Sequence record: MN414250.1 | Source of the DNA: Escherichia phage RDN8.1 | DNA: 39,508 bases | Direction: 5' to 3' (one strand) | Part shown: positions 1 through 39,508 of the stretch, in pieces | Numbering within the stretch: the first letter of the stretch is position 1 | Layout: every line of letters begins with the position of its first letter | Notes under the pieces: generated by a model | Seen by the model: the letters and a program-made list of their open reading frames with translations, nothing else | Database searches by the model: none | What the model was told of the DNA's origin: nothing | Made by a program: the position numbers and the translations under genes

Positions 1-639
1 CTGTACCAACTCAACGGCTACATCTTCGCTATGGAAGTTGGCGGTATGCGTGGTGGTTATGAAGACTCTACGCTGGAAGCCTTGGCTAAGATTGGTCGTA
101 AGTGGAAGGTCAACGAGTACGTCATTGAGGGTAACTTCGGTGATGGTATGTACCTTGAGCTATTCAAGCCTGTAGCGGCCCGTATCCATCCTGCGGCTGT
201 AACTGAAGTGAAGAGTAAGGGTCAGAAAGAACTCCGCATCTGTGACGTTCTGGAGCCTATCATGGGGTCTCACAGACTTATCGTTAACGCTGCTGCCATA
301 GTACAAGACTACCAGTCGGCCTCTGATAAGGATGGTGTTCGTAACCCTATCTACTCTCTCTTCTACCAGATGACACGTATCTCTCGTGAACGTGGAGCCT
401 TGGCACACGATGACAGACTTGATGCGCTGGCTATCGGTGTACAGTTCTTCGTTGAGTCTATGGCTAAGGATGCCAACAAAGGCGAACGTGAAGTCACCGA
501 GGAGTGGCTGGAGGAACAGATGGAGAACCCACGGAAAGGCTTCGAGTCCATCCACACTGAGTTCTGGGACAATGGGGTCCGGGTGACTCACGATACGGAC
601 GACGAGCTTGGACTAGGGTCGTACGTTGCGTTCCACTAG
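1..639 (+). CDS. Large terminase subunit (T7 gp19-like), C-terminal part; 5' end lies at 38024..39508 because the window is circularly permuted
   Basis: Reading frame continuous from window start; translation ([15 protein letters not shown]...LFYQMTRISRERGALAHDDRLDALA) matches recalled T7 gp19 C-terminus; 1..357 identical to 39152..39508. Confidence 0.93.
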   Translation: MYQLNGYIFAMEVGGMRGGYEDSTLEALAKIGRKWKVNEYVIEGNFGDGMYLELFKPVAARIHPAAVTEVKSKGQKELRICDVLEPIMGSHRLIVNAAAIVQDYQSASDKDGVRNPIYSLFYQMTRISRERGALAHDDRLDALAIGVQFFVESMAKDANKGEREVTEEWLEEQMENPRKGFESIHTEFWDNGVRVTHDTDDELGLGSYVAFH

Positions 640-6412: not shown

Positions 6413-6486
6413 CAGACCTACAGTTACTGATCTTGTGGCTGGGAGCACTCGCAGTATTCATTTTAATACAACGCAGAAGAGGTTAA

Positions 6487-6509
6487 CCTAAACTATCACT
6501 ATAGGATTA
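6487..6509 (+). promoter_or_regulatory. Phage RNAP promoter (phi1.1-like), predicted +1 at 6504
   Basis: CCTAAACTATCACTATAGGATTAG. Confidence 0.65.
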
Positions 6510-6553
6510 GACTCAAGGTCATGACTAAAAGTCGAGGCCTTCATGATTAACCA
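6506..6553 (+). promoter_or_regulatory. RNase III-like processing hairpin (T7 R1.1 position)
   Basis: Motif TAGACTCAAGGTCAT..GGCCTT(C/T)ATGATTA shared with 14025..14070 and 37062..37100; GGUCAU / GAGGCC arms can pair. Confidence 0.4.
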
Positions 6554-7066: not shown

Positions 7067-8113
7067 ATGACTACTACCATCAAGACCAACCCGCACCGCG
7101 CTGTAGATTACTCTGAGTCTGGCGTTAAGAAGGCACTAGAAGCAGCCGGGTCTCTGGAAGCTGAAGTGAAGTATGACGGTGTGCGGTTGAATATTCCGGT
7201 CTTCCCTGATGGGCGAACTGAATGGTTAAGCCGTGAGTCAAAGACGCTTCCGGCCTTAGACCATTTGTCAACAGTTGGTCAGGACATCGGAGCTTGCCGT
7301 GCGTCCGACTGGCGATGGTTCCTGAAGCAAGCAGGACATGAAGTATCTGGCCTGATGATTGATGGCGAGGTGATGGTCAAGGGTGTAGACTTCAACACGT
7401 CCTCAGGTCTTATCCGCACCATGTGGTCTGACCGCAAGAACTACAAGTGGAACATGAACCCTAAGGCCGATATGGAGACCAAGAAGTCTAACAAGGTTCC
7501 ATTCCAGATTAGCCCTGAGTTCCTACAAGTGGTCGTCTACGGGGTCATCGACCTTAACGTCATCAACGACCCGAAAGCCGAAGGCCCTATCCATAGCGTA
7601 ACTCGCCTGAAGGCCGAAGCTATTGTCCCTCTCCTCCAGAAATACTTCCCGGAAATCGACTGGGTTCTATCGGAGAGTCATACAGTGTTTAGTCTTGAGT
7701 CCCTTCGTGATTTGTACGAGGAGAAACGGGCAGATGGACACGAGGGTCTGGTAGTTAAAGACCCACTTGGGCGCTGGAAGCGTGGTAAGAAGTCGGGCAT
7801 GTGGAAAATGAAGCCAAGCGAAGAGGCAGACGGTCACGTTGTTAGACCCGTATGGGGAACAGAAGGTCTCGCAAACGAAGGTCTAGTAATTGGTTTCGAC
7901 GTTATGCTTGAGAACGGGATGGAGGTCTCCGCAACTAACATTAGTCGCGCCCTTATGTCCGAGTTCACCGAGAACGTCAAGTCCGACCCTGACTACTATA
8001 AAGGCTGGGCTTGCCAGATTACCTACATGGAGGAGACACCTGATGGCTCATTGCGGCACCCGTCATTCGACCAATGGCGAGGGACTGAGGACAATCCTAC
8101 AGTCAAGATTTAA
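7067..8113 (+). CDS. ATP-dependent DNA ligase (T7 gp1.3 homologue)
   Basis: 348 aa; IKTNP, EVKYDGVR (adenylation lysine motif), GWACQITYMEETPDGSLRHPSF match recalled T7 ligase. Confidence 0.95.
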   Translation: MTTTIKTNPHRAVDYSESGVKKALEAAGSLEAEVKYDGVRLNIPVFPDGRTEWLSRESKTLPALDHLSTVGQDIGACRASDWRWFLKQAGHEVSGLMIDGEVMVKGVDFNTSSGLIRTMWSDRKNYKWNMNPKADMETKKSNKVPFQISPEFLQVVVYGVIDLNVINDPKAEGPIHSVTRLKAEAIVPLLQKYFPEIDWVLSESHTVFSLESLRDLYEEKRADGHEGLVVKDPLGRWKRGKKSGMWKMKPSEEADGHVVRPVWGTEGLANEGLVIGFDVMLENGMEVSATNISRALMSEFTENVKSDPDYYKGWACQITYMEETPDGSLRHPSFDQWRGTEDNPTVKI

Positions 8114-8525
8114 AGTAGACGAGAGGTCAGCCTCAGGGCTGTCCCTTCACTCTGGACGTAAGGTAGGCAGTAAGAAAGCATCCGGTTATTGGACAGTGAA
8201 CGTCAGGACGCCGTGGGGACGCAAGCACCTACAGGTCCATCGGGTAATCTGGGAGTTGACATATGGCCCAATACCAGATGGCATGGAGATTGACCACATT
8301 GACCGAGACCCTTCCAACAACAGGCTTTCCAATCTGCGACTGGTGACTCACTCCGAGAACAACCAGAACAAAGGACAGATGTCCACCAACACTACCGGAG
8401 AGCGCCACATCTCCAAGGTTAAAGGTCGAAAGCTCTATTGCATCAAGAAGGTGATTAACGGAGAGCGTGTGGTCCGGTACACCAAGACCATAGCCGAGGC
8501 GGTAGCCTTAAGAGATTCATTATAA
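8043..8525 (+). CDS. HNH endonuclease; start uncertain (first in-frame ATG 8043 lies inside ligase; GTG 8196 also possible)
   Basis: [44 protein letters not shown]; paralogous to 37591..38031. Confidence 0.65.
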   Translation: MAHCGTRHSTNGEGLRTILQSRFKVDERSASGLSLHSGRKVGSKKASGYWTVNVRTPWGRKHLQVHRVIWELTYGPIPDGMEIDHIDRDPSNNRLSNLRLVTHSENNQNKGQMSTNTTGERHISKVKGRKLYCIKKVINGERVVRYTKTIAEAVALRDSL

Positions 8526-8585
8526 CGTCAACCCAGTGGTCTTCGGACTGCTGGGTTTCTTTGCGTCTGGACCCAGCGCGATGGG

Positions 8586-8608
8586 ACTAAACTATCACTG
8601 TAGGACCA
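8586..8608 (+). promoter_or_regulatory. Phage RNAP promoter variant (CACTGTAGG core), predicted +1 at 8603
   Basis: CTAAACTATCACTGTAGGACC; G replaces the usual A at -3. Confidence 0.5.
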
Positions 8609-8640
8609 CACTCGGTCCAAGACTTTAAGGAGCTAACCTT

Positions 8641-8901
8641 ATGTTCAAAAACTTAATGTTCAACCGTTATTCAAAGACCTTCCACCTGTCCCACAACCCG
8701 TTCGCTTGCATTAAGGGCAACGAGAAGCTGGGATACTTCGGGAAGGCCGTTAAGCTGTCACCTACAGTCTACGCTCTGATTACTCCAGGTAAAGCTGAAG
8801 AGGCTCGCCAGAAGCGTGAGACCAACGTACCAGTTGTCTACACTAAGTGGCCTCGCGTTCGTCTGTTCGTTGAGTTCGTGAAGGAGGTGGCCCATGTCTG
8901 A
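8641..8901 (+). CDS. Hypothetical protein, 86 aa (T7 gene 1.6 position)
   Basis: ORF follows promoter 8586; no recognised motif. Confidence 0.45.
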   Translation: MFKNLMFNRYSKTFHLSHNPFACIKGNEKLGYFGKAVKLSPTVYALITPGKAEEARQKRETNVPVVYTKWPRVRLFVEFVKEVAHV

Positions 8902-9481: not shown

Positions 9482-9499
9482 ACTATCACTGTAGGATAG
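9477..9499 (+). promoter_or_regulatory. Phage RNAP promoter variant (CACTGTAGG core), phi2.5-like, predicted +1 at 9494
   Basis: CCTAAACTATCACTGTAGGATAG; overlaps Gp2 stop codon. Confidence 0.5.
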
Positions 9500-11799: not shown

Positions 11800-12004
11800 A
11801 CTTATCGAATTTCTGGGTCGTCTGGTTGTGCGTGGCTATGCTCGCGCTGCGAGTGTTGAACGAAAGGTCGCCAGCGTGGAGGCGAAACTTGCTGAGGAAC
11901 TGGCGGCTAAGTCGCAGGCTGCACAACTGGCATCTCAGGACGCAAGCTGGGAAGCTAAACGTCTGGAGACCAAGGCCGCGCAGCTGAGCGCCTTCTTCAA
12001 GTAA
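11792..12004 (+). CDS. Hypothetical protein, 70 aa, hydrophobic N-terminus then Ala/Glu/Lys-rich helix
   Basis: ATG with GAGGAG RBS. Confidence 0.5.
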   Translation: MIKLIEFLGRLVVRGYARAASVERKVASVEAKLAEELAAKSQAAQLASQDASWEAKRLETKAAQLSAFFK

Positions 12005-12006
12005 CA

Positions 12007-12029
12007 ACTAAACTATCACCTTAGGGATG
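12007..12029 (+). promoter_or_regulatory. Degenerate phage promoter-like sequence (CACCTTAGGG core), upstream of gene 4
   Basis: CTAAACTATCACCTTAGGGATGG; two core mismatches. Confidence 0.3.
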
Positions 12030-12076
12030 GGACCATGAGTCCTGTCCCTTTGTTCGCATTTGTGATTAAGGAGTGA

Positions 12077-13777
<1,701 letters not shown>

Positions 13778-19291: not shown

Positions 19292-19532
19292 ATCAATCAG
19301 TAAGGCTTTCAAGAAAGTAGTGGGTGGCGCATTGAACACTGTTGGTCTGGGCCAAGCGCCTACGCCTAAAGCTGCCGACACTCAGGTGGCTGCGGCCCCG
19401 GTGGAAGTCCCTCAGGACCAAGTGACTGACGTTGAGACCGATGTGACCGAGACCGATAAGAAGAAAGTGAAGCGTTCCGGTAAGCGTAGCCTTCAGGTCT
19501 CTCGCACCTCTGGTGGCGGTATTTCTATTTGA
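19284..19532 (+). CDS. Gene 7.3-like tail-associated protein, GTG start
   Basis: AAGGAG RBS; MGK..K N-terminus and C-terminal SGGGISI match recalled T7 gp7.3. Confidence 0.65.
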   Translation: MGKSISKAFKKVVGGALNTVGLGQAPTPKAADTQVAAAPVEVPQDQVTDVETDVTETDKKKVKRSGKRSLQVSRTSGGGISI

Positions 19533-19945
19533 CCGGGTGCATCGAGTGGAAGTGGGCCAAATCCTCAGCAGGATACGGGCAGAAGCGTATAGACGGTAAG
19601 TTAGTGTATATGCACCGACTCGCTTACGCCGATGCGCATGGTCCAATACCAGACGGAATGCTCGTCCGTCATAAGTGTGATAATCCAGCGTGTTTCAACG
19701 TAAACCACTTAGAGTTAGGAACTCAGCGTGATAACATGCAGGACGCCTCAAAGCGTGGTCGCGTCAATAAAACCAAAATGGCTAGAGGTGAAGACCAAGG
19801 GTTATCGGTTTTAACAGAAGACCTTGTTCGAGAAATCCGCAAGTCAACCGTAGGTTGTACAACACTGGCTCGTGAGCTAGGAGTTAGCAAGTCTACAGTT
19901 TTGCGTGTTCGCCAAGGTAAAACATGGAGGCACGTAGATGGCTGA
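19529..19945 (+). CDS. HNH endonuclease (T7 gene 7.7 position), probable TTG start
   Basis: CIEWKWAKSSAGYGQ...YMHRLAY...HKCDNPACFNVNHLELGTQRDN. Confidence 0.7.
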   Translation: MTGCIEWKWAKSSAGYGQKRIDGKLVYMHRLAYADAHGPIPDGMLVRHKCDNPACFNVNHLELGTQRDNMQDASKRGRVNKTKMARGEDQGLSVLTEDLVREIRKSTVGCTTLARELGVSKSTVLRVRQGKTWRHVDG

Positions 19946-27849: not shown

Positions 27850-30132
27850 ATGGCTAGTAATATCGAATCAGCTTTAGCTAACCGGACTATGGGCCGTGGT
27901 CGCGCTCCGGGCAAGACTATTAGTCTGGACTATCAGGCGGCTAACGTTCAGGGGCAGACTGGGGACTCTGGTCTCGCTCGTGCGTTAACCAACTTCGTGG
28001 AATCAGGAGCTGGCGTCTACAAGCAGTTTCAGGAGAAGGCCAAGAACCTCGGAGACGAACGGTCTAACGAGATTATCCGCAAGCTGACTCCTCAGCAGCG
28101 ACGAGATGCTATCCAGAACGGGACCCTGCTTTATCAGGATGACCCATACGCTATGGAGGCACTCCGAGTCAAGACTGGTCGTAATGCTGCCTATGCGGTG
28201 GACGATGAGATTAACGTCAAGATTCAGAACGGTGAGTTCCGTACCCGTCAGGACATGGAGGAGTACCGCCACCAGCGACTCCAAGATGCCGCTAAGTCTT
28301 ACGCTGAGGAAGCCGGGATTAACCCGAACGATGAACACTTCCAGCGAGGCTTTAACGCTGACATCACCGACCGCAACGTAGCCATCTATGGGTCGTTCAA
28401 TAAGTATTTCTCTAAGCAGTCAGAGAATACCGCTATGCTGAACACCCGCGTGGAGCTTAACTCGTTCCTGAACGATGGGGACCTGATGCGCTCAACTGAG
28501 GCTGGTAAATCCTTCATGGGATACATCCGTGATGGGCTAACCACCGCTGCCATTCCGTCCGACCAAAGGGCTACTGAGGTCATCACTCAGACGGTGCGGG
28601 ACGCTATCCAGAAGTCCGGTGGCTCTAACTTCCTACAGCAGATTCGCAATGAGCGCATCACACTTAATGGTGTGGACGCTACGGTCGAGGAGATTGTGGG
28701 ACCTGAGGTCTTCAACGCTTCGTTGATTGAGGCCCAAAGCACTGAGTACAAGCTGGTGGCTAAGTATCAGGAAGACTTGTCTTTAGGCGTTCAGTCTGCG
28801 ATTCTTCAGGATGACCCGACCATCGGTCTGGCCCAGATTCAGAAACTCAAGGAGCAGAACAACCTGCTTCAACCGGGAGAAGAACTCACGCCTCAGCGTC
28901 AGATGCTTATTAATGCCGAAGCCAGCTTACTGGAAGCGGTCAAGCGTAAGTCCGCTGAACAGGCGAAGGAGAACACTAAGCTCATCCAGACGCAGAACAA
29001 GCAACTGGTCATTGACCAAGTGTATCAGCGCCGACTGGCTGGGGACAACGTGTCCACCAACTATGAGGACCTCCCTGTCTCTGCGGCTACAGGCGAGTTT
29101 AAGCGTTCGGACATGAACAACTACGCTATGGGTAAACTCCAACAGATTGACCAGATGGACATCCCTGAGGCTGCTAAAGACGCTCAGAAGGTGGCATTGT
29201 TAAGAGCTGACACTAACAACGGTCCGTTCCGTAATGCCTTCCAGACTCTAACTCAGGACGCTGCTGGAGAGTGGCAAGCTGCGGTCATCCGTGGACAGTA
29301 CGACCCAGACAAGATGCAACGCTTCGAGTCTCTTCGTCGTGCCTACACTCAGGACCCTTCAAGTTTTGCTGCCCTGTATCCTGACCAAGCTCAGCTATTC
29401 TCTACGTTCGACCAGATGGGCAAGATGGGTCTGGACCCTCAGACGATGATTGAAGCTGATAAGCAAGCTGCAAGTCAAAGCCGTGAGATGCGCATGGAGT
29501 CAGACAAGGCGTGGCAGGAGTTGAAGAACGACTCCAAGAACATCCAGTTGTCTCGCCTCCCAACGTCTCTGGACTCAAGTGCTCGTAAGGTCTGGGACTC
29601 ATGGTACTATCGTACAGGGAACGCTGACGCTGCAACTCAGCAGACTCAACGCTGGCTTAACGAGAACACCGTAACGTTCCAGTCTGAAGGTTCTGACGGT
29701 AAGTCAATCGGCATGGTGTCCAAGCACCAGCTTATGGTCGGGGATAACCCAGAGTCGTGGCAGGTGGGTCGAGACATTATCGACACCGCTCGTCAGCAAC
29801 TCATTAAGGCTAACCCTTGGGTAGTGAACTCTCAGTTGTCCGTTGTTGAACAGAACGGCTCTATCTTCCTCCAAGACGCTACAGGTACTATTCGTATTCG
29901 CTACGATAAGGAACTTGTAGGTAAACTCTACCGCGAACAACAGCAGAAGGCACAAGATGCCGCATATGCTCAGGCAGAACGTGACGCTAACAAGCGAGCG
30001 CGTATCGTCGGGACTAAAGCTGATGGCGACAAACGTCGAGCTGACCGAGAGGCCAACATCGATAAGCGTGGTGGTATGTACAATGACGTCTCACTGGAGG
30101 GTATCGCAAACGTACTAATCGGTAAGGAGTAA
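27850..30132 (+). CDS. Internal virion protein C (gp15-like)
   Basis: 760 aa after AGGAGG; size and position match T7 gp15 (747 aa). Confidence 0.85.
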   Translation: MASNIESALANRTMGRGRAPGKTISLDYQAANVQGQTGDSGLARALTNFVESGAGVYKQFQEKAKNLGDERSNEIIRKLTPQQRRDAIQNGTLLYQDDPYAMEALRVKTGRNAAYAVDDEINVKIQNGEFRTRQDMEEYRHQRLQDAAKSYAEEAGINPNDEHFQRGFNADITDRNVAIYGSFNKYFSKQSENTAMLNTRVELNSFLNDGDLMRSTEAGKSFMGYIRDGLTTAAIPSDQRATEVITQTVRDAIQKSGGSNFLQQIRNERITLNGVDATVEEIVGPEVFNASLIEAQSTEYKLVAKYQEDLSLGVQSAILQDDPTIGLAQIQKLKEQNNLLQPGEELTPQRQMLINAEASLLEAVKRKSAEQAKENTKLIQTQNKQLVIDQVYQRRLAGDNVSTNYEDLPVSAATGEFKRSDMNNYAMGKLQQIDQMDIPEAAKDAQKVALLRADTNNGPFRNAFQTLTQDAAGEWQAAVIRGQYDPDKMQRFESLRRAYTQDPSSFAALYPDQAQLFSTFDQMGKMGLDPQTMIEADKQAASQSREMRMESDKAWQELKNDSKNIQLSRLPTSLDSSARKVWDSWYYRTGNADAATQQTQRWLNENTVTFQSEGSDGKSIGMVSKHQLMVGDNPESWQVGRDIIDTARQQLIKANPWVVNSQLSVVEQNGSIFLQDATGTIRIRYDKELVGKLYREQQQKAQDAAYAQAERDANKRARIVGTKADGDKRRADREANIDKRGGMYNDVSLEGIANVLIGKE

Positions 30133-37150: not shown

Positions 37151-37594
37151 ATGCTCGAACTTTTACGTAAAGCGCTCCCGTGGTTAGCGGCAGGACTCCT
37201 GTTCTGTTCAGGCTACTGGGTGGCAGACACAAAGTGGGAGGCGAAAGTAAGCAATGAGTACATCACTAAATTACAAGCAGAGGACAGAACGCGCACTTCG
37301 GTACAGCGAGAGGTGTCACGTATTGCAGCGGACTACCAAGACAAGCTGTCCGCGCTGGAAGGCTCTACTGATAGGATTATTGCTGACCTTAACCGCGATA
37401 ACAAGCGGTTGCGCATCAGAGTCCAACCTACCAGTGGAACGGTCCAAAGTGACGGTCGATGCGTCATTGATGGTTACGCCGACCTTGATGAGCGAGATGC
37501 TAAACGTCTTATCGCCATCGGACTGAAGGGCGACGAGTGGATTAAAGCCTTGCAGGGGACCATCAGGGCCTTGCAGCAGGAGAAGGAGAAATGA
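37151..37594 (+). CDS. Rz-like i-spanin (T7 gp18.5 homologue)
   Basis: 147 aa; N-terminal TM LPWLAAGLLF; EGSTDRIIADLNRDNKRLRIRV, DERDAKRLIA match recalled T7 Rz. Confidence 0.85.
   Translation: MLELLRKALPWLAAGLLFCSGYWVADTKWEAKVSNEYITKLQAEDRTRTSVQREVSRIAADYQDKLSALEGSTDRIIADLNRDNKRLRIRVQPTSGTVQSDGRCVIDGYADLDERDAKRLIAIGLKGDEWIKALQGTIRALQQEKEK
37254..37526 (+). CDS. Rz1-like o-spanin lipoprotein embedded in Rz in the +1 frame; start uncertain (possibly TTG about 37323)
   Basis: Embedded ORF with hydrophobic segment ALLIGLLLTLTAI and lipobox-like TSGC. Confidence 0.45.
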   Translation: MSTSLNYKQRTERALRYSERCHVLQRTTKTSCPRWKALLIGLLLTLTAITSGCASESNLPVERSKVTVDASLMVTPTLMSEMLNVLSPSD

Positions 37595-38031
37595 TGCTCA
37601 GTGATTCGTATGTCTATGATGAGTCCAGTAAGTCTGGCCTGAAGTCCCTGCGTTCTGGTAAGGATGTGGGGTGTGTGGGAAACCACGGGTATTATCAGGT
37701 AGGAACTCGACGTCATGGACTCCTGCTGGCCCATAGAGTCGTCTGGGAGCTAACCAACGGTCCTATACCAGAAGGTATGGAGATTGACCATATTGACCGC
37801 TGCCGGACTAACAACAGGCTTGACAACCTCCGGCTAGTTACTTCAAGCGAGAACTCCTGCAACACCTCAGGACATTCTGACTCAAAGACTGGAGTTAAGA
37901 ACATATCGTTCCATCAGAATGGCTACGCTATCGAGGTCATGCGTAAGGGAGTCCGTATGCGAACAACACGTCCTACTTTAGAGGAGGCTATCTCTGTCCG
38001 GGACCTAATGCTGGAGGGACTATATGTCTAA
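37591..38031 (+). CDS. HNH endonuclease inserted between Rz and terminase
   Basis: AGGAG RBS; [41 protein letters not shown]; paralogue of 8043..8525. Confidence 0.8.
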
Positions 38032-39508
38032 GAAAACACCTGCTGAAAGACAGGCTGAAATGACCCAAAGGATGAGGGACGACTTCGTGTTCTTCATCTT
38101 TGTTCTCTGGAAAGCGCTGAGCCTTCCGGTTCCAACTAGATGTCAGATAGATATGTGTAAGAAGCTGGCTGCTGGCGATAACCGACGATTCATCCTTCAG
38201 GCGTTCCGAGGTATTGGCAAATCGTTTCTGACCTGTGGTTTCGTGGTCTGGAAATTATGGAACAACCCAGACTTAAAGTTCATGATTGTGTCGGCCTCAA
38301 AGGAGCGAGCCGATGCGAACTCCATCTTCATCAAGCGAATCATCGACCTAATGCCTCAGCTTCAGGAACTCAAACCTAAGCAGGGACAGCGAGATGCGGT
38401 TATCAGCTTCGACGTAGGGCCAGCCAAGCCAGACCACTCACCTTCGGTTAAGTCCGTTGGTATCACTGGTCAGTTGACTGGTAGTCGTGCTGACATCCTG
38501 ATTGCCGATGACGTGGAGGTTCCGAACAACTCAGCGACTCAGGCCGCACGAGACCGTCTGTCAGAGCTTGTGAAAGAGTTCGACGCTATTCTGAAGCCGG
38601 GAGGTACAATCATCTATCTGGGTACTCCTCAGAACGAGATGACTTTGTATCGTGAGCTGGAAGGCCGTGGGTACACCACTACTATCTGGCCTGCTCGTTA
38701 TCCACGCGACAGGAAGGACTGGCAGTCTTACGGCGACCGTCTGGCGCCGATGCTTCAGGCGGAGCTGGAAGAGGACCCTGAGTCCTTCTACTGGCGTCCG
38801 ACCGATGAAGTTCGATTCGACGATACTGACCTGAAGGAACGCGAGCTGTCCTACGGTAAAGCTGGCTTCGCTCTACAGTTCATGCTTAACCCGAACCTGA
38901 GTGATGCCGAGAAGTACCCTCTGAAGCTCCGTGACCTTATCGTAGCAGACTTGGACCCAGCGTCCAGCCCAATGGTCTACCAATGGTTGCCGAACCCTCA
39001 GAACAAGCGTGAGGACGTTCCTAACGTTGGACTCATGGGTGACTCATACCACACGTATCAGACTGTAGGTTCTGCCTTCAGTTCGTACACCCAGAAGATT
39101 CTGGTCATAGACCCTAGTGGTCGTGGCAAGGATGAAACTGGCTATGCGGTACTGTACCAACTCAACGGCTACATCTTCGCTATGGAAGTTGGCGGTATGC
39201 GTGGTGGTTATGAAGACTCTACGCTGGAAGCCTTGGCTAAGATTGGTCGTAAGTGGAAGGTCAACGAGTACGTCATTGAGGGTAACTTCGGTGATGGTAT
39301 GTACCTTGAGCTATTCAAGCCTGTAGCGGCCCGTATCCATCCTGCGGCTGTAACTGAAGTGAAGAGTAAGGGTCAGAAAGAACTCCGCATCTGTGACGTT
39401 CTGGAGCCTATCATGGGGTCTCACAGACTTATCGTTAACGCTGCTGCCATAGTACAAGACTACCAGTCGGCCTCTGATAAGGATGGTGTTCGTAACCCTA
39501 TCTACTCT
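38024..39508 (+). CDS. Large terminase subunit (T7 gp19 homologue), N-terminal part; runs off the window end and continues at 1..639
   Basis: ATG 38024 overlaps HNH stop; [13 protein letters not shown] (Walker A), [55 protein letters not shown] match recalled T7 gp19. Confidence 0.95.
39152..39508. repeat. Exact copy of window positions 1..357 (assembly / circular-permutation overlap inside the terminase gene)
   Basis: Direct comparison of both ends; reading frame preserved across the join. Confidence 0.95.

What the first reader, a model, noticed from the sequence alone, without database searches (positions are those of the whole stretch)
8043..8525. Three HNH endonuclease ORFs, two of them paralogous
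HNH ORFs occur after ligase (8043..8525), at the gene 7.7 position (19529..19945) and between Rz and terminase (37591..38031). The first and third share an extended motif ([20 protein letters not shown]...NNRL.NLRLVT.SEN), suggesting duplication or spread of one element into two intergenic sites. The ligase-adjacent copy has no start codon of its own near the domain: the first in-frame ATG is 71 nt inside the ligase gene. The 37591 copy sits immediately upstream of terminase, a position where HNH proteins are known to assist packaging.
Basis: partly seen in the sequence, partly recalled or inferred. Interest (0 to 1): 0.5.

Follow-up and report, generated by a model that had tools for sequence, protein, structure and literature searches.

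The report
Three homing-endonuclease genes in T7-like phage
The three HNH reading frames are real, ordinary free-standing homing-endonuclease genes of a T7-like (Kayfunavirus) phage, and the odd one that starts 71 bases inside the ligase gene is a divergent copy of "gene 1.45", already annotated with the same overlap in Yersinia phage phiYeO3-12.

Summary
All three ORFs exist as described and match Pfam HNH_3 (E 2e-23, 1.3e-15, 1.8e-21). The window is a circularly permuted Kayfunavirus genome.

- **HNH1 (8043..8525)** lies between the ligase stop and the early-terminator hairpin. This is the "gene 1.45" slot of phiYeO3-12, which is annotated with the same 71-nt overlap.
  - All 16 distinct HNH-bearing sequences examined, from at least two genera, keep an ATG or GTG at -71 and an open frame. 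All 15 tabulated also keep GGAGGA(G/A) upstream.
  - The HNH body is under strong purifying selection (dN/dS 0.07-0.12). It is therefore a working gene, most likely translated from ATG 8043.
  - Relatives show three states at this site: empty, occupied by one of two alleles about 50% identical, or a deletion footprint.
- **HNH2 (19529..19945)** is a T7 gp7.7 homologue (46% identity) with a TTG start overlapping the gene 7.3 stop.
- **HNH3 (37591..38031)** occupies a polymorphic site between Rz and terminase.

HNH1 and HNH3 belong to one subfamily (47% identity, HNH plus an AP2-like tail). They are not a recent duplication, because each has a much closer counterpart at its own site in other phages. 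A packaging role for HNH3 is not supported. Overall this is ordinary biology and of low interest.

The parts
7067..8113 (+). DNA ligase gene (T7 gene 1.3 homologue), intact, 348 aa
   Evidence: Pfam DNA_ligase_A_M and DNA_ligase_C. The C-terminus ...YMEETPDGSLRHPSF...NPTVKI* is shared with relatives.
8029..8035 (+). Shine-Dalgarno-like GGAGGAG, 7 nt upstream of ATG 8043; formed by the ligase codons Met-Glu-Glu
   Evidence: Read directly from the sequence. GGAGGA(G/A) is present in all 15 HNH-bearing relatives tabulated.
8043..8525 (+). HNH1: gene 1.45-type free-standing HNH homing endonuclease, 160 aa if started at ATG 8043; allele 'A'
   Evidence: HNH_3 E 2e-23. PHROG 99. 91% aa identity to TH16. 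dN/dS 0.07 against TH16. Model pLDDT 88 with I-HmuI as the best fold match.
8043..8113 (+). 71-nt overlap of HNH1 (+1 frame) with the ligase 3' end; encodes a 22-23 residue N-terminal extension not homologous to the HNH family
   Evidence: The PHROG 99 match starts at residue 26. The same overlap is annotated in phiYeO3-12, where gene 1.45 is 7903..8376 and ligase ends at 7973.
8124..8126 (+). AGG codon at the position where a few relatives carry a start codon of their own (ATG in L043 and PH1061, GTG in PMBT12)
8114..8525 (+). DNA present here but absent from empty-site relatives (Milel, L023, L024 have only CTAA between the ligase TAA and ACGTCAAC)
   Evidence: Junction listing.
8530..8564 (+). 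12-bp GC-rich hairpin followed by UCUUUG; positional counterpart of the T7 early terminator TE
   Evidence: RNA fold -20.6 kcal/mol, z -2.97. Conserved in all relatives immediately after the HNH or the ligase. T7 annotates TE 34 nt after ligase. Not detected by the simple terminator scan.
8592..8605 (+). Phage RNA-polymerase promoter core (CTATCACTGTAGGA) ahead of gene 1.6
   Evidence: 10 matches in the window against 0.24 expected by chance.
19529..19945 (+). HNH2: T7 gp7.7-type HNH endonuclease, 138 aa. Its TTG start overlaps the gene 7.3 stop (TTGA). Its last codons contain the SD and ATG of gene 8 (portal).
   Evidence: HNH_3 E 1.3e-15. 46% identity to T7 gp7.7 over the full length, E 7e-43. 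Near-identical (2 aa differences in 138) to CR44b gp7.7, whose translation also begins with Leu/TTG. Junctions.
37591..38031 (+). HNH3: gp3.8A/PHROG 99-type HNH endonuclease, 146 aa. Its ATG overlaps the Rz stop (ATGA). Its last codons contain the SD and ATG of the large terminase gene.
   Evidence: HNH_3 E 1.8e-21. 66% identity to CR44b 3.8A at the same site. Junctions.
38024..39508 (+). Large terminase gene (continues at 358..639 because the assembly is circularly permuted); its start ATG lies inside the HNH3 3' end
   Evidence: tblastn with CR44b gp19. Pfam Terminase-T7_RNaseH-like and Terminase_6N.

Best explanation
The window is a complete, circularly permuted Kayfunavirus (T7-like) genome. 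It carries three free-standing HNH (His-Me finger) homing-endonuclease genes, each wedged at a gene boundary and translationally interlocked with its neighbours.

HNH1 is a divergent allele ('A') of the gene 1.45 element first annotated in phiYeO3-12. It sits as the last gene of the early operon, between the ligase stop codon and the early-terminator hairpin. Only the part from about codon 24 onward is endonuclease sequence: an N-terminal beta-motif, the HNH core and an AP2-like DNA-binding tail. The first 22-23 codons are the +1 reading of the ligase tail. Translation most likely starts at ATG 8043. That codon arises from the ligase codons Pro-Asp-Gly (CCT GAT GGC). It is served by GGAGGAG, which arises from the ligase codons Met-Glu-Glu.

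HNH2 (gp7.7-type) starts at a TTG overlapping the gene 7.3 stop. HNH3 (3.8A-type) starts at an ATG overlapping the Rz stop. Both carry the ribosome-binding site and start codon of the essential downstream gene (portal, large terminase) within their own last codons.

By analogy with characterised phage HNH homing endonucleases such as I-HmuI, the proteins are inferred to nick or cut the HNH-less allele of a co-infecting relative near the insertion site and to be copied in by recombinational repair. Loss also occurs, by deletion between short repeats.

Shown here: gene identity, fold, conservation, selection, site polymorphism and junctions. Inferred: the initiation codon actually used, the cleavage target and homing itself.
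For: - HNH identity: Pfam HNH_3 for all three. PHROG 99 for HNH1 and HNH3, PHROG 59 for HNH2.
- Structure: a family profile hits I-HmuI (1U3E, E 1.8e-12) and plant AP2/ERF domains (E 1.4e-9). The AlphaFold model has pLDDT 88, and I-HmuI is the best Foldseek match (prob 1.0). The family-invariant residues H66, D84, H85, N93, N97 and N109 are all present in HNH1.
- Site polymorphism: the ligase-to-gene-1.6 spacer is 501-539 nt when occupied, 131 nt when empty and 159-163 nt with a footprint. HNH2-type DNA is present in 34 of 221 matching records and HNH3-type in 38 of 399. Five whole-genome relatives carry 1-5 HNH genes at varying sites.
- Function of HNH1: dN/dS is 0.07 (window vs TH16, dS 0.71) and 0.07-0.12 among B alleles at dS 0.77-1.1.
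- Start of HNH1: phiYeO3-12 gene 1.45 is annotated from the same ATG, 71 nt inside ligase. All 16 distinct HNH-bearing sequences have ATG or GTG there with an open frame, against 17 of 28 HNH-less ligases (Fisher p = 0.003, not corrected for phylogeny). All 15 tabulated also have GGAGGA(G/A) upstream. There is no stable RNA structure over the start (z -0.59).
- HNH2: 46% identical to T7 gp7.7 over the full length, with TTG aligned to the T7 ATG.
- Downstream starts inside the cassettes: shown by the junction alignments.
- Gain and loss in real time: a 397-bp HEG at the HNH3 site is present or absent within one stock of Hafnia phage Ca (PMC8861465).
Against: - No direct evidence for initiation at 8043. 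The ATG and the open +1 frame also occur in 17 of 28 HNH-less ligases, because Asp-Gly is usually GAT GGN. Their presence is therefore partly a by-product of ligase coding, and the Fisher test is confounded by relatedness.
- A few relatives have an ATG or GTG of their own 11 nt past the ligase stop (L043, PH1061, PMBT12), so a second initiation site exists in some lineages. In the window that codon is AGG.
- Pfam AP2 does not match the window's own C-terminal region, even at E 10.
- No cleavage site, homing or expression has been measured for any of these alleles.
Confidence: 0.75

Rival explanations
1. HNH1 is a decaying pseudogene that lost its start codon. The open frame back into ligase is accidental and no protein is made.
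For: In the window the codon 11 nt after the ligase stop is AGG, whereas two relatives have ATG and one has GTG there. Annotators of several relatives called only fragments or nothing. Deletion footprints show that the element can be lost.
Against: dN/dS is 0.07-0.12 at dS 0.7-1.0, including pairs that both lack the downstream start. There are no frameshifts or stops in 16 distinct sequences. Family-invariant catalytic residues are intact. The fold is predicted with confidence. The upstream ATG/GTG and SD are conserved across at least two genera.
Confidence: 0.06
2. HNH1 is translated, but not from ATG 8043. Initiation would occur close to the ligase stop, either by termination-reinitiation or at a near-cognate codon (for example AGG 8124 or ATC 8094), giving a protein of about 133-143 aa.
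For: The family N-terminus normally begins only 5-7 residues before the [FY]-x-[VY]-D motif. In L043, PH1061 and PMBT12 a canonical start sits 11 nt after the ligase stop. The first 10 residues of the 160-aa model are disordered.
Against: The window has no ATG, GTG or TTG between 8043 and 8196. The codon at +11 is GAG, ACG, GCG or AGG in most lineages. AGG, ACG and ATC are very poor initiators in E. coli (established knowledge). Residues 12-22 of the extension are predicted as a confident helix packed before the first strand.
Confidence: 0.14
3. HNH1 is made as a ligase-HNH fusion by +1 ribosomal frameshifting at the last ligase codon (AUU UAA A), in the manner of prfB (CUU UGA).
For: The HNH frame is +1 relative to ligase. 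A +1 slip of the P-site tRNA from AUU to UUU just before the stop would continue into AAA GUA GAC....
Against: There is no SD-like stimulator 3 nt upstream. The slipped tRNA-Ile would mispair at the first position. The slip context is not conserved where the arrangement is: phiYeO3-12 ends GUA UAA and PMBT12 ends AUA UAA. The -71 ATG/GTG and SD, by contrast, are conserved everywhere.
Confidence: 0.02
4. HNH3 is a packaging cofactor of the terminase, like HK97 gp74, rather than a selfish element.
For: Its position is immediately upstream of the large terminase gene. In Hafnia phage Ca, genomes lacking the 397-bp HEG at this site predominate in small plaques (PMC8861465).
Against: The gene is absent from 2 of 5 whole-genome relatives and from most matching records. 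T7 and the empty-site relatives package without it. The terminase is T7-type (Terminase-T7_RNaseH-like, Terminase_6N), not Terminase_1, which is the family said to need HNH partners. HNH3 belongs to HNH_3/PHROG 99, together with the ligase-adjacent copy. The plaque effect is equally explained by the cassette carrying the terminase SD and ATG.
Confidence: 0.05
5. HNH1 and HNH3 arose by a recent duplication or transposition of one element within this genome.
For: They share an extended motif and one 24-nt nearly identical stretch. An HNH3-type gene is found at a different site in phage NS1, so ectopic moves do occur.
Against: They are only 47-50% identical at the protein level. Each is much closer to genes at the same site in other phages: 91% to TH16, 96% to NS1_40, and about 90% nucleotide identity in 38 records. 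HNH1-A is no closer to HNH3 than to allele B at its own site (50% in both cases).
Confidence: 0.03

Closest known systems
Gene 1.45 of Yersinia phage phiYeO3-12 (NP_052076.1, HNH endonuclease) and its copies in Kayfunavirus phages (CLB_P1 1.45, PE3-1, PH1061)
   Same: Same slot between the ligase stop and the early terminator or promoter. Same 71-nt overlap with ligase, starting at the ATG inside CCT GAT GGC, with GGAGGA upstream. Same domain order.
   Different: The window carries a divergent allele, about 45-50% aa identical to the 1.45/B alleles. Its only GenBank phage counterpart is the unannotated TH16. The C-terminal 13 residues and the junctions are shared with allele B, but the interior is not.
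T7 gp7.7 and CR44b gp7.7 (HNH endonuclease between genes 7.3 and 8)
   Same: HNH2 is 46% identical to T7 gp7.7 over the full length and near-identical to CR44b gp7.7 (2 aa differences in 138), in the same position.
   Different: It has a TTG start overlapping the gene 7.3 stop, instead of the separate ATG of T7. It is absent from many Kayfunaviruses.
CR44b gene 3.8A and the Hafnia phage Ca ORF48 HEG (between Rz and the large terminase)
   Same: Same insertion site. Same overlap with the Rz stop and the same embedded terminase start. Identical C-terminal end ...[10 protein letters not shown].
   Different: HNH3 is a different allele, 66% identical to 3.8A, with ATG instead of a GTG start.
I-HmuI (PDB 1U3E), intron-encoded HNH homing endonuclease of Bacillus phage SPO1
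   Same: Best sequence-profile match and best fold match for the N-terminal beta-motif plus HNH core.
   Different: I-HmuI is intron-encoded and has a helix-turn-helix C-terminal DNA-binding domain. HNH1 and HNH3 are free-standing and have an AP2-like tail.
HNH-AP2 homing endonucleases (HNH_3 plus AP2 PF00847 architecture)
   Same: Several of the nearest database homologues carry both domains. The family profile matches AP2/ERF structures. The model has three strands and a helix at residues 124-159.
   Different: Pfam AP2 does not hit the window proteins themselves, and the terminal helix is shorter than in those relatives.
Terminase-associated HNH proteins (HK97 gp74 type)
   Same: Only the adjacency of HNH3 to a terminase gene.
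   Different: HNH3 is not conserved among relatives, the terminase is not of the Terminase_1 family, and this is a T7-type packaging system.

Membership tests
HNH / His-Me finger endonuclease (Pfam HNH_3, PF13392) | Profile match above the curated gathering score | tested here: met
   82.2, 57.2 and 75.9 bits against a cut-off of 24.8, for HNH1, HNH2 and HNH3.
HNH / His-Me finger endonuclease (Pfam HNH_3, PF13392) | Catalytic His and the Asn/Asp metal-site residues conserved | tested here: met
   The invariant columns H66, D84, H85, N93, N97 and N109 of a 19-member alignment are all present in HNH1 and HNH3. HNH2 was not in that alignment.
HNH / His-Me finger endonuclease (Pfam HNH_3, PF13392) | Beta-beta-alpha-metal fold resembling a solved HNH homing endonuclease | tested here: met
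   HNH1 model pLDDT 88.4. Foldseek top hit I-HmuI 1U3E, E 4.9e-4, prob 1.00. Profile hit 1U3E, E 1.8e-12. HNH2 and HNH3 were not modelled.
Free-standing homing endonuclease gene (HEG) | Presence/absence polymorphism at one and the same site among close relatives | tested here: met
   All three sites have both occupied and empty states with defined junctions.
Free-standing homing endonuclease gene (HEG) | Not inside an intron or intein; neighbouring genes intact | tested here: met
   Ligase, gene 7.3, gene 8, Rz and terL are full length and only their ends overlap the HNH ORFs.
Free-standing homing endonuclease gene (HEG) | The enzyme cleaves the HEG-less allele near the insertion site and is inherited super-Mendelianly in mixed infection | not testable with these tools
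   Needs in-vitro cleavage assays and phage crosses.
phiYeO3-12 gene 1.45 lineage | Located between the ligase stop and the early terminator/promoter phi1.5-1.6 | tested here: met
phiYeO3-12 gene 1.45 lineage | ORF starts at the ATG 71 nt inside ligase, in the +1 frame | tested here: met
   Gene 1.45 is 7903..8376 and ligase ends at 7973. The same geometry holds in the window and in 14 other HNH-bearing genomes.
phiYeO3-12 gene 1.45 lineage | Sequence homology to gp1.45 | tested here: met
   Allele B is about 70% nt identical to gene 1.45. The window's allele A is 45-50% aa identical to B alleles, including the 1.45-like PMBT12. It is therefore a divergent member.
T7 gp7.7 family (HNH2) | Full-length homology and a position between genes 7.3 and 8 | tested here: met
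   46% identity, E 7e-43. Position.
HNH-AP2 architecture | C-terminal AP2 (PF00847) DNA-binding domain | tested here: inconclusive
   No Pfam AP2 hit on the window's own C-terminal regions at E <= 10. However, relatives carry PF00847, the family profile hits AP2/ERF structures at E 1.4e-9, the model shows three strands and a helix, and Foldseek matches to AP2 domains are weak (prob about 0.6).
Terminase-associated HNH packaging factor (HK97 gp74 type) | Conserved next to the terminase genes in all related phages | tested here: not met
   HNH3-type DNA is in 38 of 399 matching records. Milel and phiHAO1-1 have empty sites.
Terminase-associated HNH packaging factor (HK97 gp74 type) | Partner large terminase of the Terminase_1 family | tested here: not met
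   terL hits Terminase-T7_RNaseH-like (6.3e-38) and Terminase_6N. The Terminase_1 requirement is as summarised in PMC8861465.

The most novel reading that the evidence does not exclude
The three elements may be entrenched by sharing translation signals with their neighbours, in both directions.

HNH1 has no initiation signals of its own. It depends on an SD and ATG written into the codons of the conserved ligase motif Y-M-E-E-T-P-D-G, so the phage can remove them only through specific synonymous changes.

HNH2 and HNH3 have replaced the native ribosome-binding site and start codon of the essential portal and terminase genes with ones inside their own 3' ends. Simple deletion of either element would then cripple an essential gene. 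This would be an addiction-like retention mechanism for homing endonuclease genes. It is consistent with the small-plaque HEG-less genomes reported in Hafnia phage Ca.
Probability: 0.3. Interest if true: 0.4.

Novelty: new member of a known kind. Interest (0 to 1): 0.2.

Why it matters
The main value is for annotation and phage engineering. The gene 1.45-type endonuclease is selected and intact, yet public records treat it inconsistently. It is called as a 77-aa or 118-aa fragment, called from sporadic downstream starts, or not called at all, because its start lies inside the ligase gene. Recognising the conserved -71 start gives a uniform gene model.

The clean set of empty, occupied (two alleles) and footprint states at one site is a compact example of the gain, replacement and loss cycle of homing endonuclease genes in T7-like phages.

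Anyone deleting these "non-essential" genes from therapeutic Kayfunavirus genomes should know that two of them carry the start signals of the portal and terminase genes.

None of this changes what is known about how such elements work.

Tried and rejected
- **Pfam on C-terminal tails.** Scanning the C-terminal tails alone gave no AP2 hit, even at E 10. The AP2 assignment rests only on relatives, a family profile and the model.
- **Terminator scan.** The simple scan found nothing at 7800..8700, although folding shows a strong conserved hairpin.
- **RNA structure over ATG 8043.** Not different from shuffles (z -0.59), so there is no evidence for structural regulation of the start.
- **Metagenome pattern scan.** The junction pattern was too degenerate. 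It returned 120 stretches, of which 3 were real and all were allele A.
- **Literature on gene 1.45.** The phiYeO3-12 genome paper is not in the held library, so only the GenBank annotation could be used.
- **+1 frameshift fusion with ligase.** Considered, then rejected because the slip context is not conserved where the arrangement is.
- **Base composition.** The three genes are 49-52% GC against 51.6% for the genome, so there is no sign of recent foreign origin.
- **Constraint on the 22-residue extension.** Its sequence varies freely with ligase synonymous sites, in HNH-bearing and HNH-less genomes alike. Its sequence does not appear to be selected.
Full report
**What the window is.** Megablast of three regions finds only Kayfunavirus (T7-like, Studiervirinae) genomes, at 80-95% identity. 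Gene order follows T7. The first 357 bases repeat at the end (1..357 = 39152..39508) and the large terminase gene runs across the join. The window is therefore a circularly permuted whole-genome assembly of about 39.15 kb.

**Checking the observation.**
- All three match Pfam HNH_3 well above threshold: E 2e-23, 1.3e-15 and 1.8e-21.
- A tblastn with eight HNH proteins finds exactly these three places in the window.
- HNH1 and HNH3 are 47% identical over 144 residues (E 1e-34) and share the quoted motif.
- HNH2 shares only the catalytic core with them. It belongs to another PHROG: 59, against 99 for HNH1 and HNH3.
- Ligase is 7067..8113. HNH1 is in the +1 frame and its first ATG is 8043, 71 nt inside ligase.

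**What HNH1 is.** It lies between the ligase stop and a conserved 12-bp hairpin plus U-tract (8530..8564, -20.6 kcal/mol, z -2.97). T7 annotates its early terminator TE at that position. A phage promoter core follows at 8592.

Relatives show three states at this junction:
- **Empty.** The ligase TAA is followed by CTAA and then the hairpin (Milel, L023, L024).
- **Occupied.** Either allele A (the window, TH16 and metagenome contigs L043, L044, L084, L141) or allele B (PE3-1, JSS1, phiHAO1-1, CLB_P1, SR04, CHRF_30111, PH1061). A and B are about 50% identical but share the same junctions and the same last 13 residues.
- **Footprint.** ST10, CR44b and L020 retain 13 nt of the 5' end and about 23 nt of the 3' end of allele A, joined at a short imperfect repeat (GAGAGG|T..AGCC and GAGGCGG|TAGCC). 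These genomes therefore once carried the gene and deleted it.

Allele A is rare in GenBank phages. TH16 is the only match, at 85% nucleotide and 91% amino-acid identity. Allele B covers at least 80% of the query in 12 records and is about 70% identical at nucleotide level to gene 1.45 of Yersinia phage phiYeO3-12 and its Klebsiella-phage relatives.

**The start-codon question.** The phiYeO3-12 record annotates gene 1.45 (HNH endonuclease) at 7903..8376 and ligase ending at 7973. That is the same 71-nt overlap, beginning at the ATG formed by CCT GAT GGC (Pro-Asp-Gly), with GGAGGA upstream.

I tabulated 15 HNH-bearing genomes from Kayfunavirus, Teetrevirus and Klebsiella phage PMBT12, whose genus is not given in its record. 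All have ATG at -71 (GTG where ligase reads Pro-Ser-Gly), GGAGGA(G/A) upstream and an uninterrupted +1 frame.

Counting distinct sequences, 16 of 16 HNH-bearing ligases have a usable start and open frame, against 17 of 28 HNH-less ones (Fisher p = 0.003). This test is not corrected for relatedness. The high background shows that the ATG is partly a by-product of ligase coding.

The codon 11 nt after the ligase stop is ATG in L043 and PH1061 and GTG in PMBT12. It is AGG, ACG, GCG or GAG elsewhere, and AGG in the window. A downstream start therefore exists only sporadically.

The HNH body is under strong purifying selection:
- dN/dS is 0.07 for the window against TH16 (dS 0.71).
- dN/dS is 0.07-0.12 among B alleles at dS 0.77-1.1.
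- These comparisons include pairs that both lack the downstream start.

A gene kept this way must be translated, and the only conserved canonical initiation site is the one at -71.

The PHROG 99 match begins at residue 26, and family members normally start 5-7 residues before the [FY]-x-[VY]-D motif. The first 22-23 residues are therefore ligase-tail sequence read in another frame, not ancestral endonuclease sequence. In the AlphaFold model (pLDDT 88) residues 1-10 are disordered and residues 12-22 form a helix ahead of the first strand.

A +1 frameshift fusion with ligase at AUU-UAA was considered. I rejected it because that context is not conserved in phiYeO3-12 (GUA UAA) or PMBT12 (AUA UAA), where the arrangement is.

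**Protein architecture.**
- A profile of 19 family members hits I-HmuI (1U3E, E 1.8e-12) over the N-terminal and HNH part. It hits plant AP2/ERF domains (WRI1, E 1.4e-9) over the tail.
- Several close homologues carry Pfam AP2 together with HNH_3.
- The model shows three strands and a helix at 124-159.
- Foldseek puts I-HmuI first.
- Pfam AP2 does not hit the window's own tails, so the AP2 assignment is probable rather than proven.

**HNH2.** It is 46% identical to T7 gp7.7 over the full length, with its TTG aligned to the T7 ATG. It differs from CR44b gp7.7 at only 2 of 138 residues.

The TTG overlaps the gene 7.3 stop (TTGA). Empty relatives read ...TAAGGAGGTGACGAATG into gene 8. In the window and CR44b that 13-nt spacer is replaced by the HNH gene, whose last codons (TGG AGG CAC GTA GAT GGC TGA) supply a new SD and the ATG of gene 8. 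HNH2-type DNA is present in 34 of 221 matching records.

**HNH3.** Its ATG overlaps the Rz stop (ATGA). Its last codons (GGA GGG ACT ATA TGT CTA A) contain the SD and ATG of the large terminase gene. Empty relatives (Milel, phiHAO1-1) instead start terL at a GTG overlapping the Rz stop.

CR44b, TH16 and ST10 carry a different allele at the same site (3.8A, 66% identical) with the same C-terminal end. The window's allele is present in 38 of 399 matching records.

In Hafnia phage Ca, a Kayfunavirus, a 397-bp HEG at this site is present or absent within one stock, and HEG-less genomes predominate in small plaques (PMC8861465). The authors raise a link to terminase. That effect is equally explained by the cassette carrying the terminase initiation signals.

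A gp74-type packaging role is not supported, for two reasons. The gene is dispensable in relatives. The terminase is T7-type (Terminase-T7_RNaseH-like and Terminase_6N), not Terminase_1.

**Relationship of the copies.** The identity matrix shows HNH1-A at 50% to HNH1-B and 50% to HNH3. HNH3 is 66% identical to 3.8A and 96% to a gene of Citrobacter phage NS1. The copies in this genome are old paralogues acquired separately, not a recent internal duplication.

Ectopic spread does happen elsewhere. In NS1 the HNH3-type gene, together with 38 nt of terL 5' coding sequence, sits upstream of the holin gene and is flanked by a direct repeat of about 90 bp.

Base composition gives no sign of recent foreign origin.

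**Verdict.** It is wrong, or unsupported, on recent duplication and on packaging. The apparent lack of a start for the ligase-adjacent copy is a conserved overlapping-gene arrangement, already annotated for phiYeO3-12 gene 1.45. The window adds a divergent allele and a clear set of site states. Interest is low.

Noticed in passing
window 1..357 and 39152..39508: The two ends of the window are identical over 357 bases and the large terminase gene runs across the join (38024..39508, then 358..639). The window is therefore a circularly permuted assembly, not the natural linear genome with terminal repeats.
   Followed up: yes
L008 (ST10), L004 (CR44b) 6485..6530, L020: HNH-less relatives keep a footprint of allele A after the ligase stop: AGTGGACGAAAGG joined to TAGCCTTGAGAGA.TCATTAT. 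This shows loss by deletion between short imperfect repeats, not an ancestral absence.
   Followed up: yes
L042 (Citrobacter phage NS1) 790..1460: A gene 96% identical to HNH3, carrying 38 nt of terL 5' coding sequence, sits ectopically between the tail-fibre and holin genes. It is flanked by a direct repeat of about 90 bp of the local sequence, which looks like a record of an illegitimate move of the cassette.
   Followed up: partly
L001/L003 2048..2281, L009 1711..1944, L166 526..882, L006 7245..7747, L011 1583..2085: Public records annotate the ligase-adjacent HNH inconsistently. It is called as 77-aa or 118-aa fragments from internal ATGs, or not called at all, although the full 153-aa frame is intact and under selection.
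   Followed up: yes
window 19920..19945 and 38005..38031: The ribosome-binding sites and ATGs of the essential genes 8 (portal) and 19 (large terminase) lie inside the last codons of HNH2 and HNH3. Empty-site relatives use different initiation signals (GGAGGTGACGAATG; a GTG overlapping the Rz stop).
   Followed up: partly
window 8592..8605 and 9483..9496: Two of the ten phage-promoter cores carry the same A-to-G variant (CTATCACTGTAGGA instead of CTATCACTATAGGA). Its significance is unknown.
   Followed up: no
hits H41 (OR786095.1) and H23/H74 (MT350292.1): Records named 'Staphylococcus phage MBBL139' and 'Enterococcus phage EFA-1' are 85-93% identical to this enterobacterial Kayfunavirus in the regions where they match. 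The stated Gram-positive hosts look doubtful.
   Followed up: no
L004 (CR44b) 11851..12252, 28080..28529, 37950..38366: CR44b carries three further HNH genes (7.7B before DNA polymerase, 7.7C between genes 15 and 16, 3.8B after gene 19) at sites that are empty in the window. Kayfunaviruses therefore have at least six polymorphic HNH sites.
   Followed up: partly
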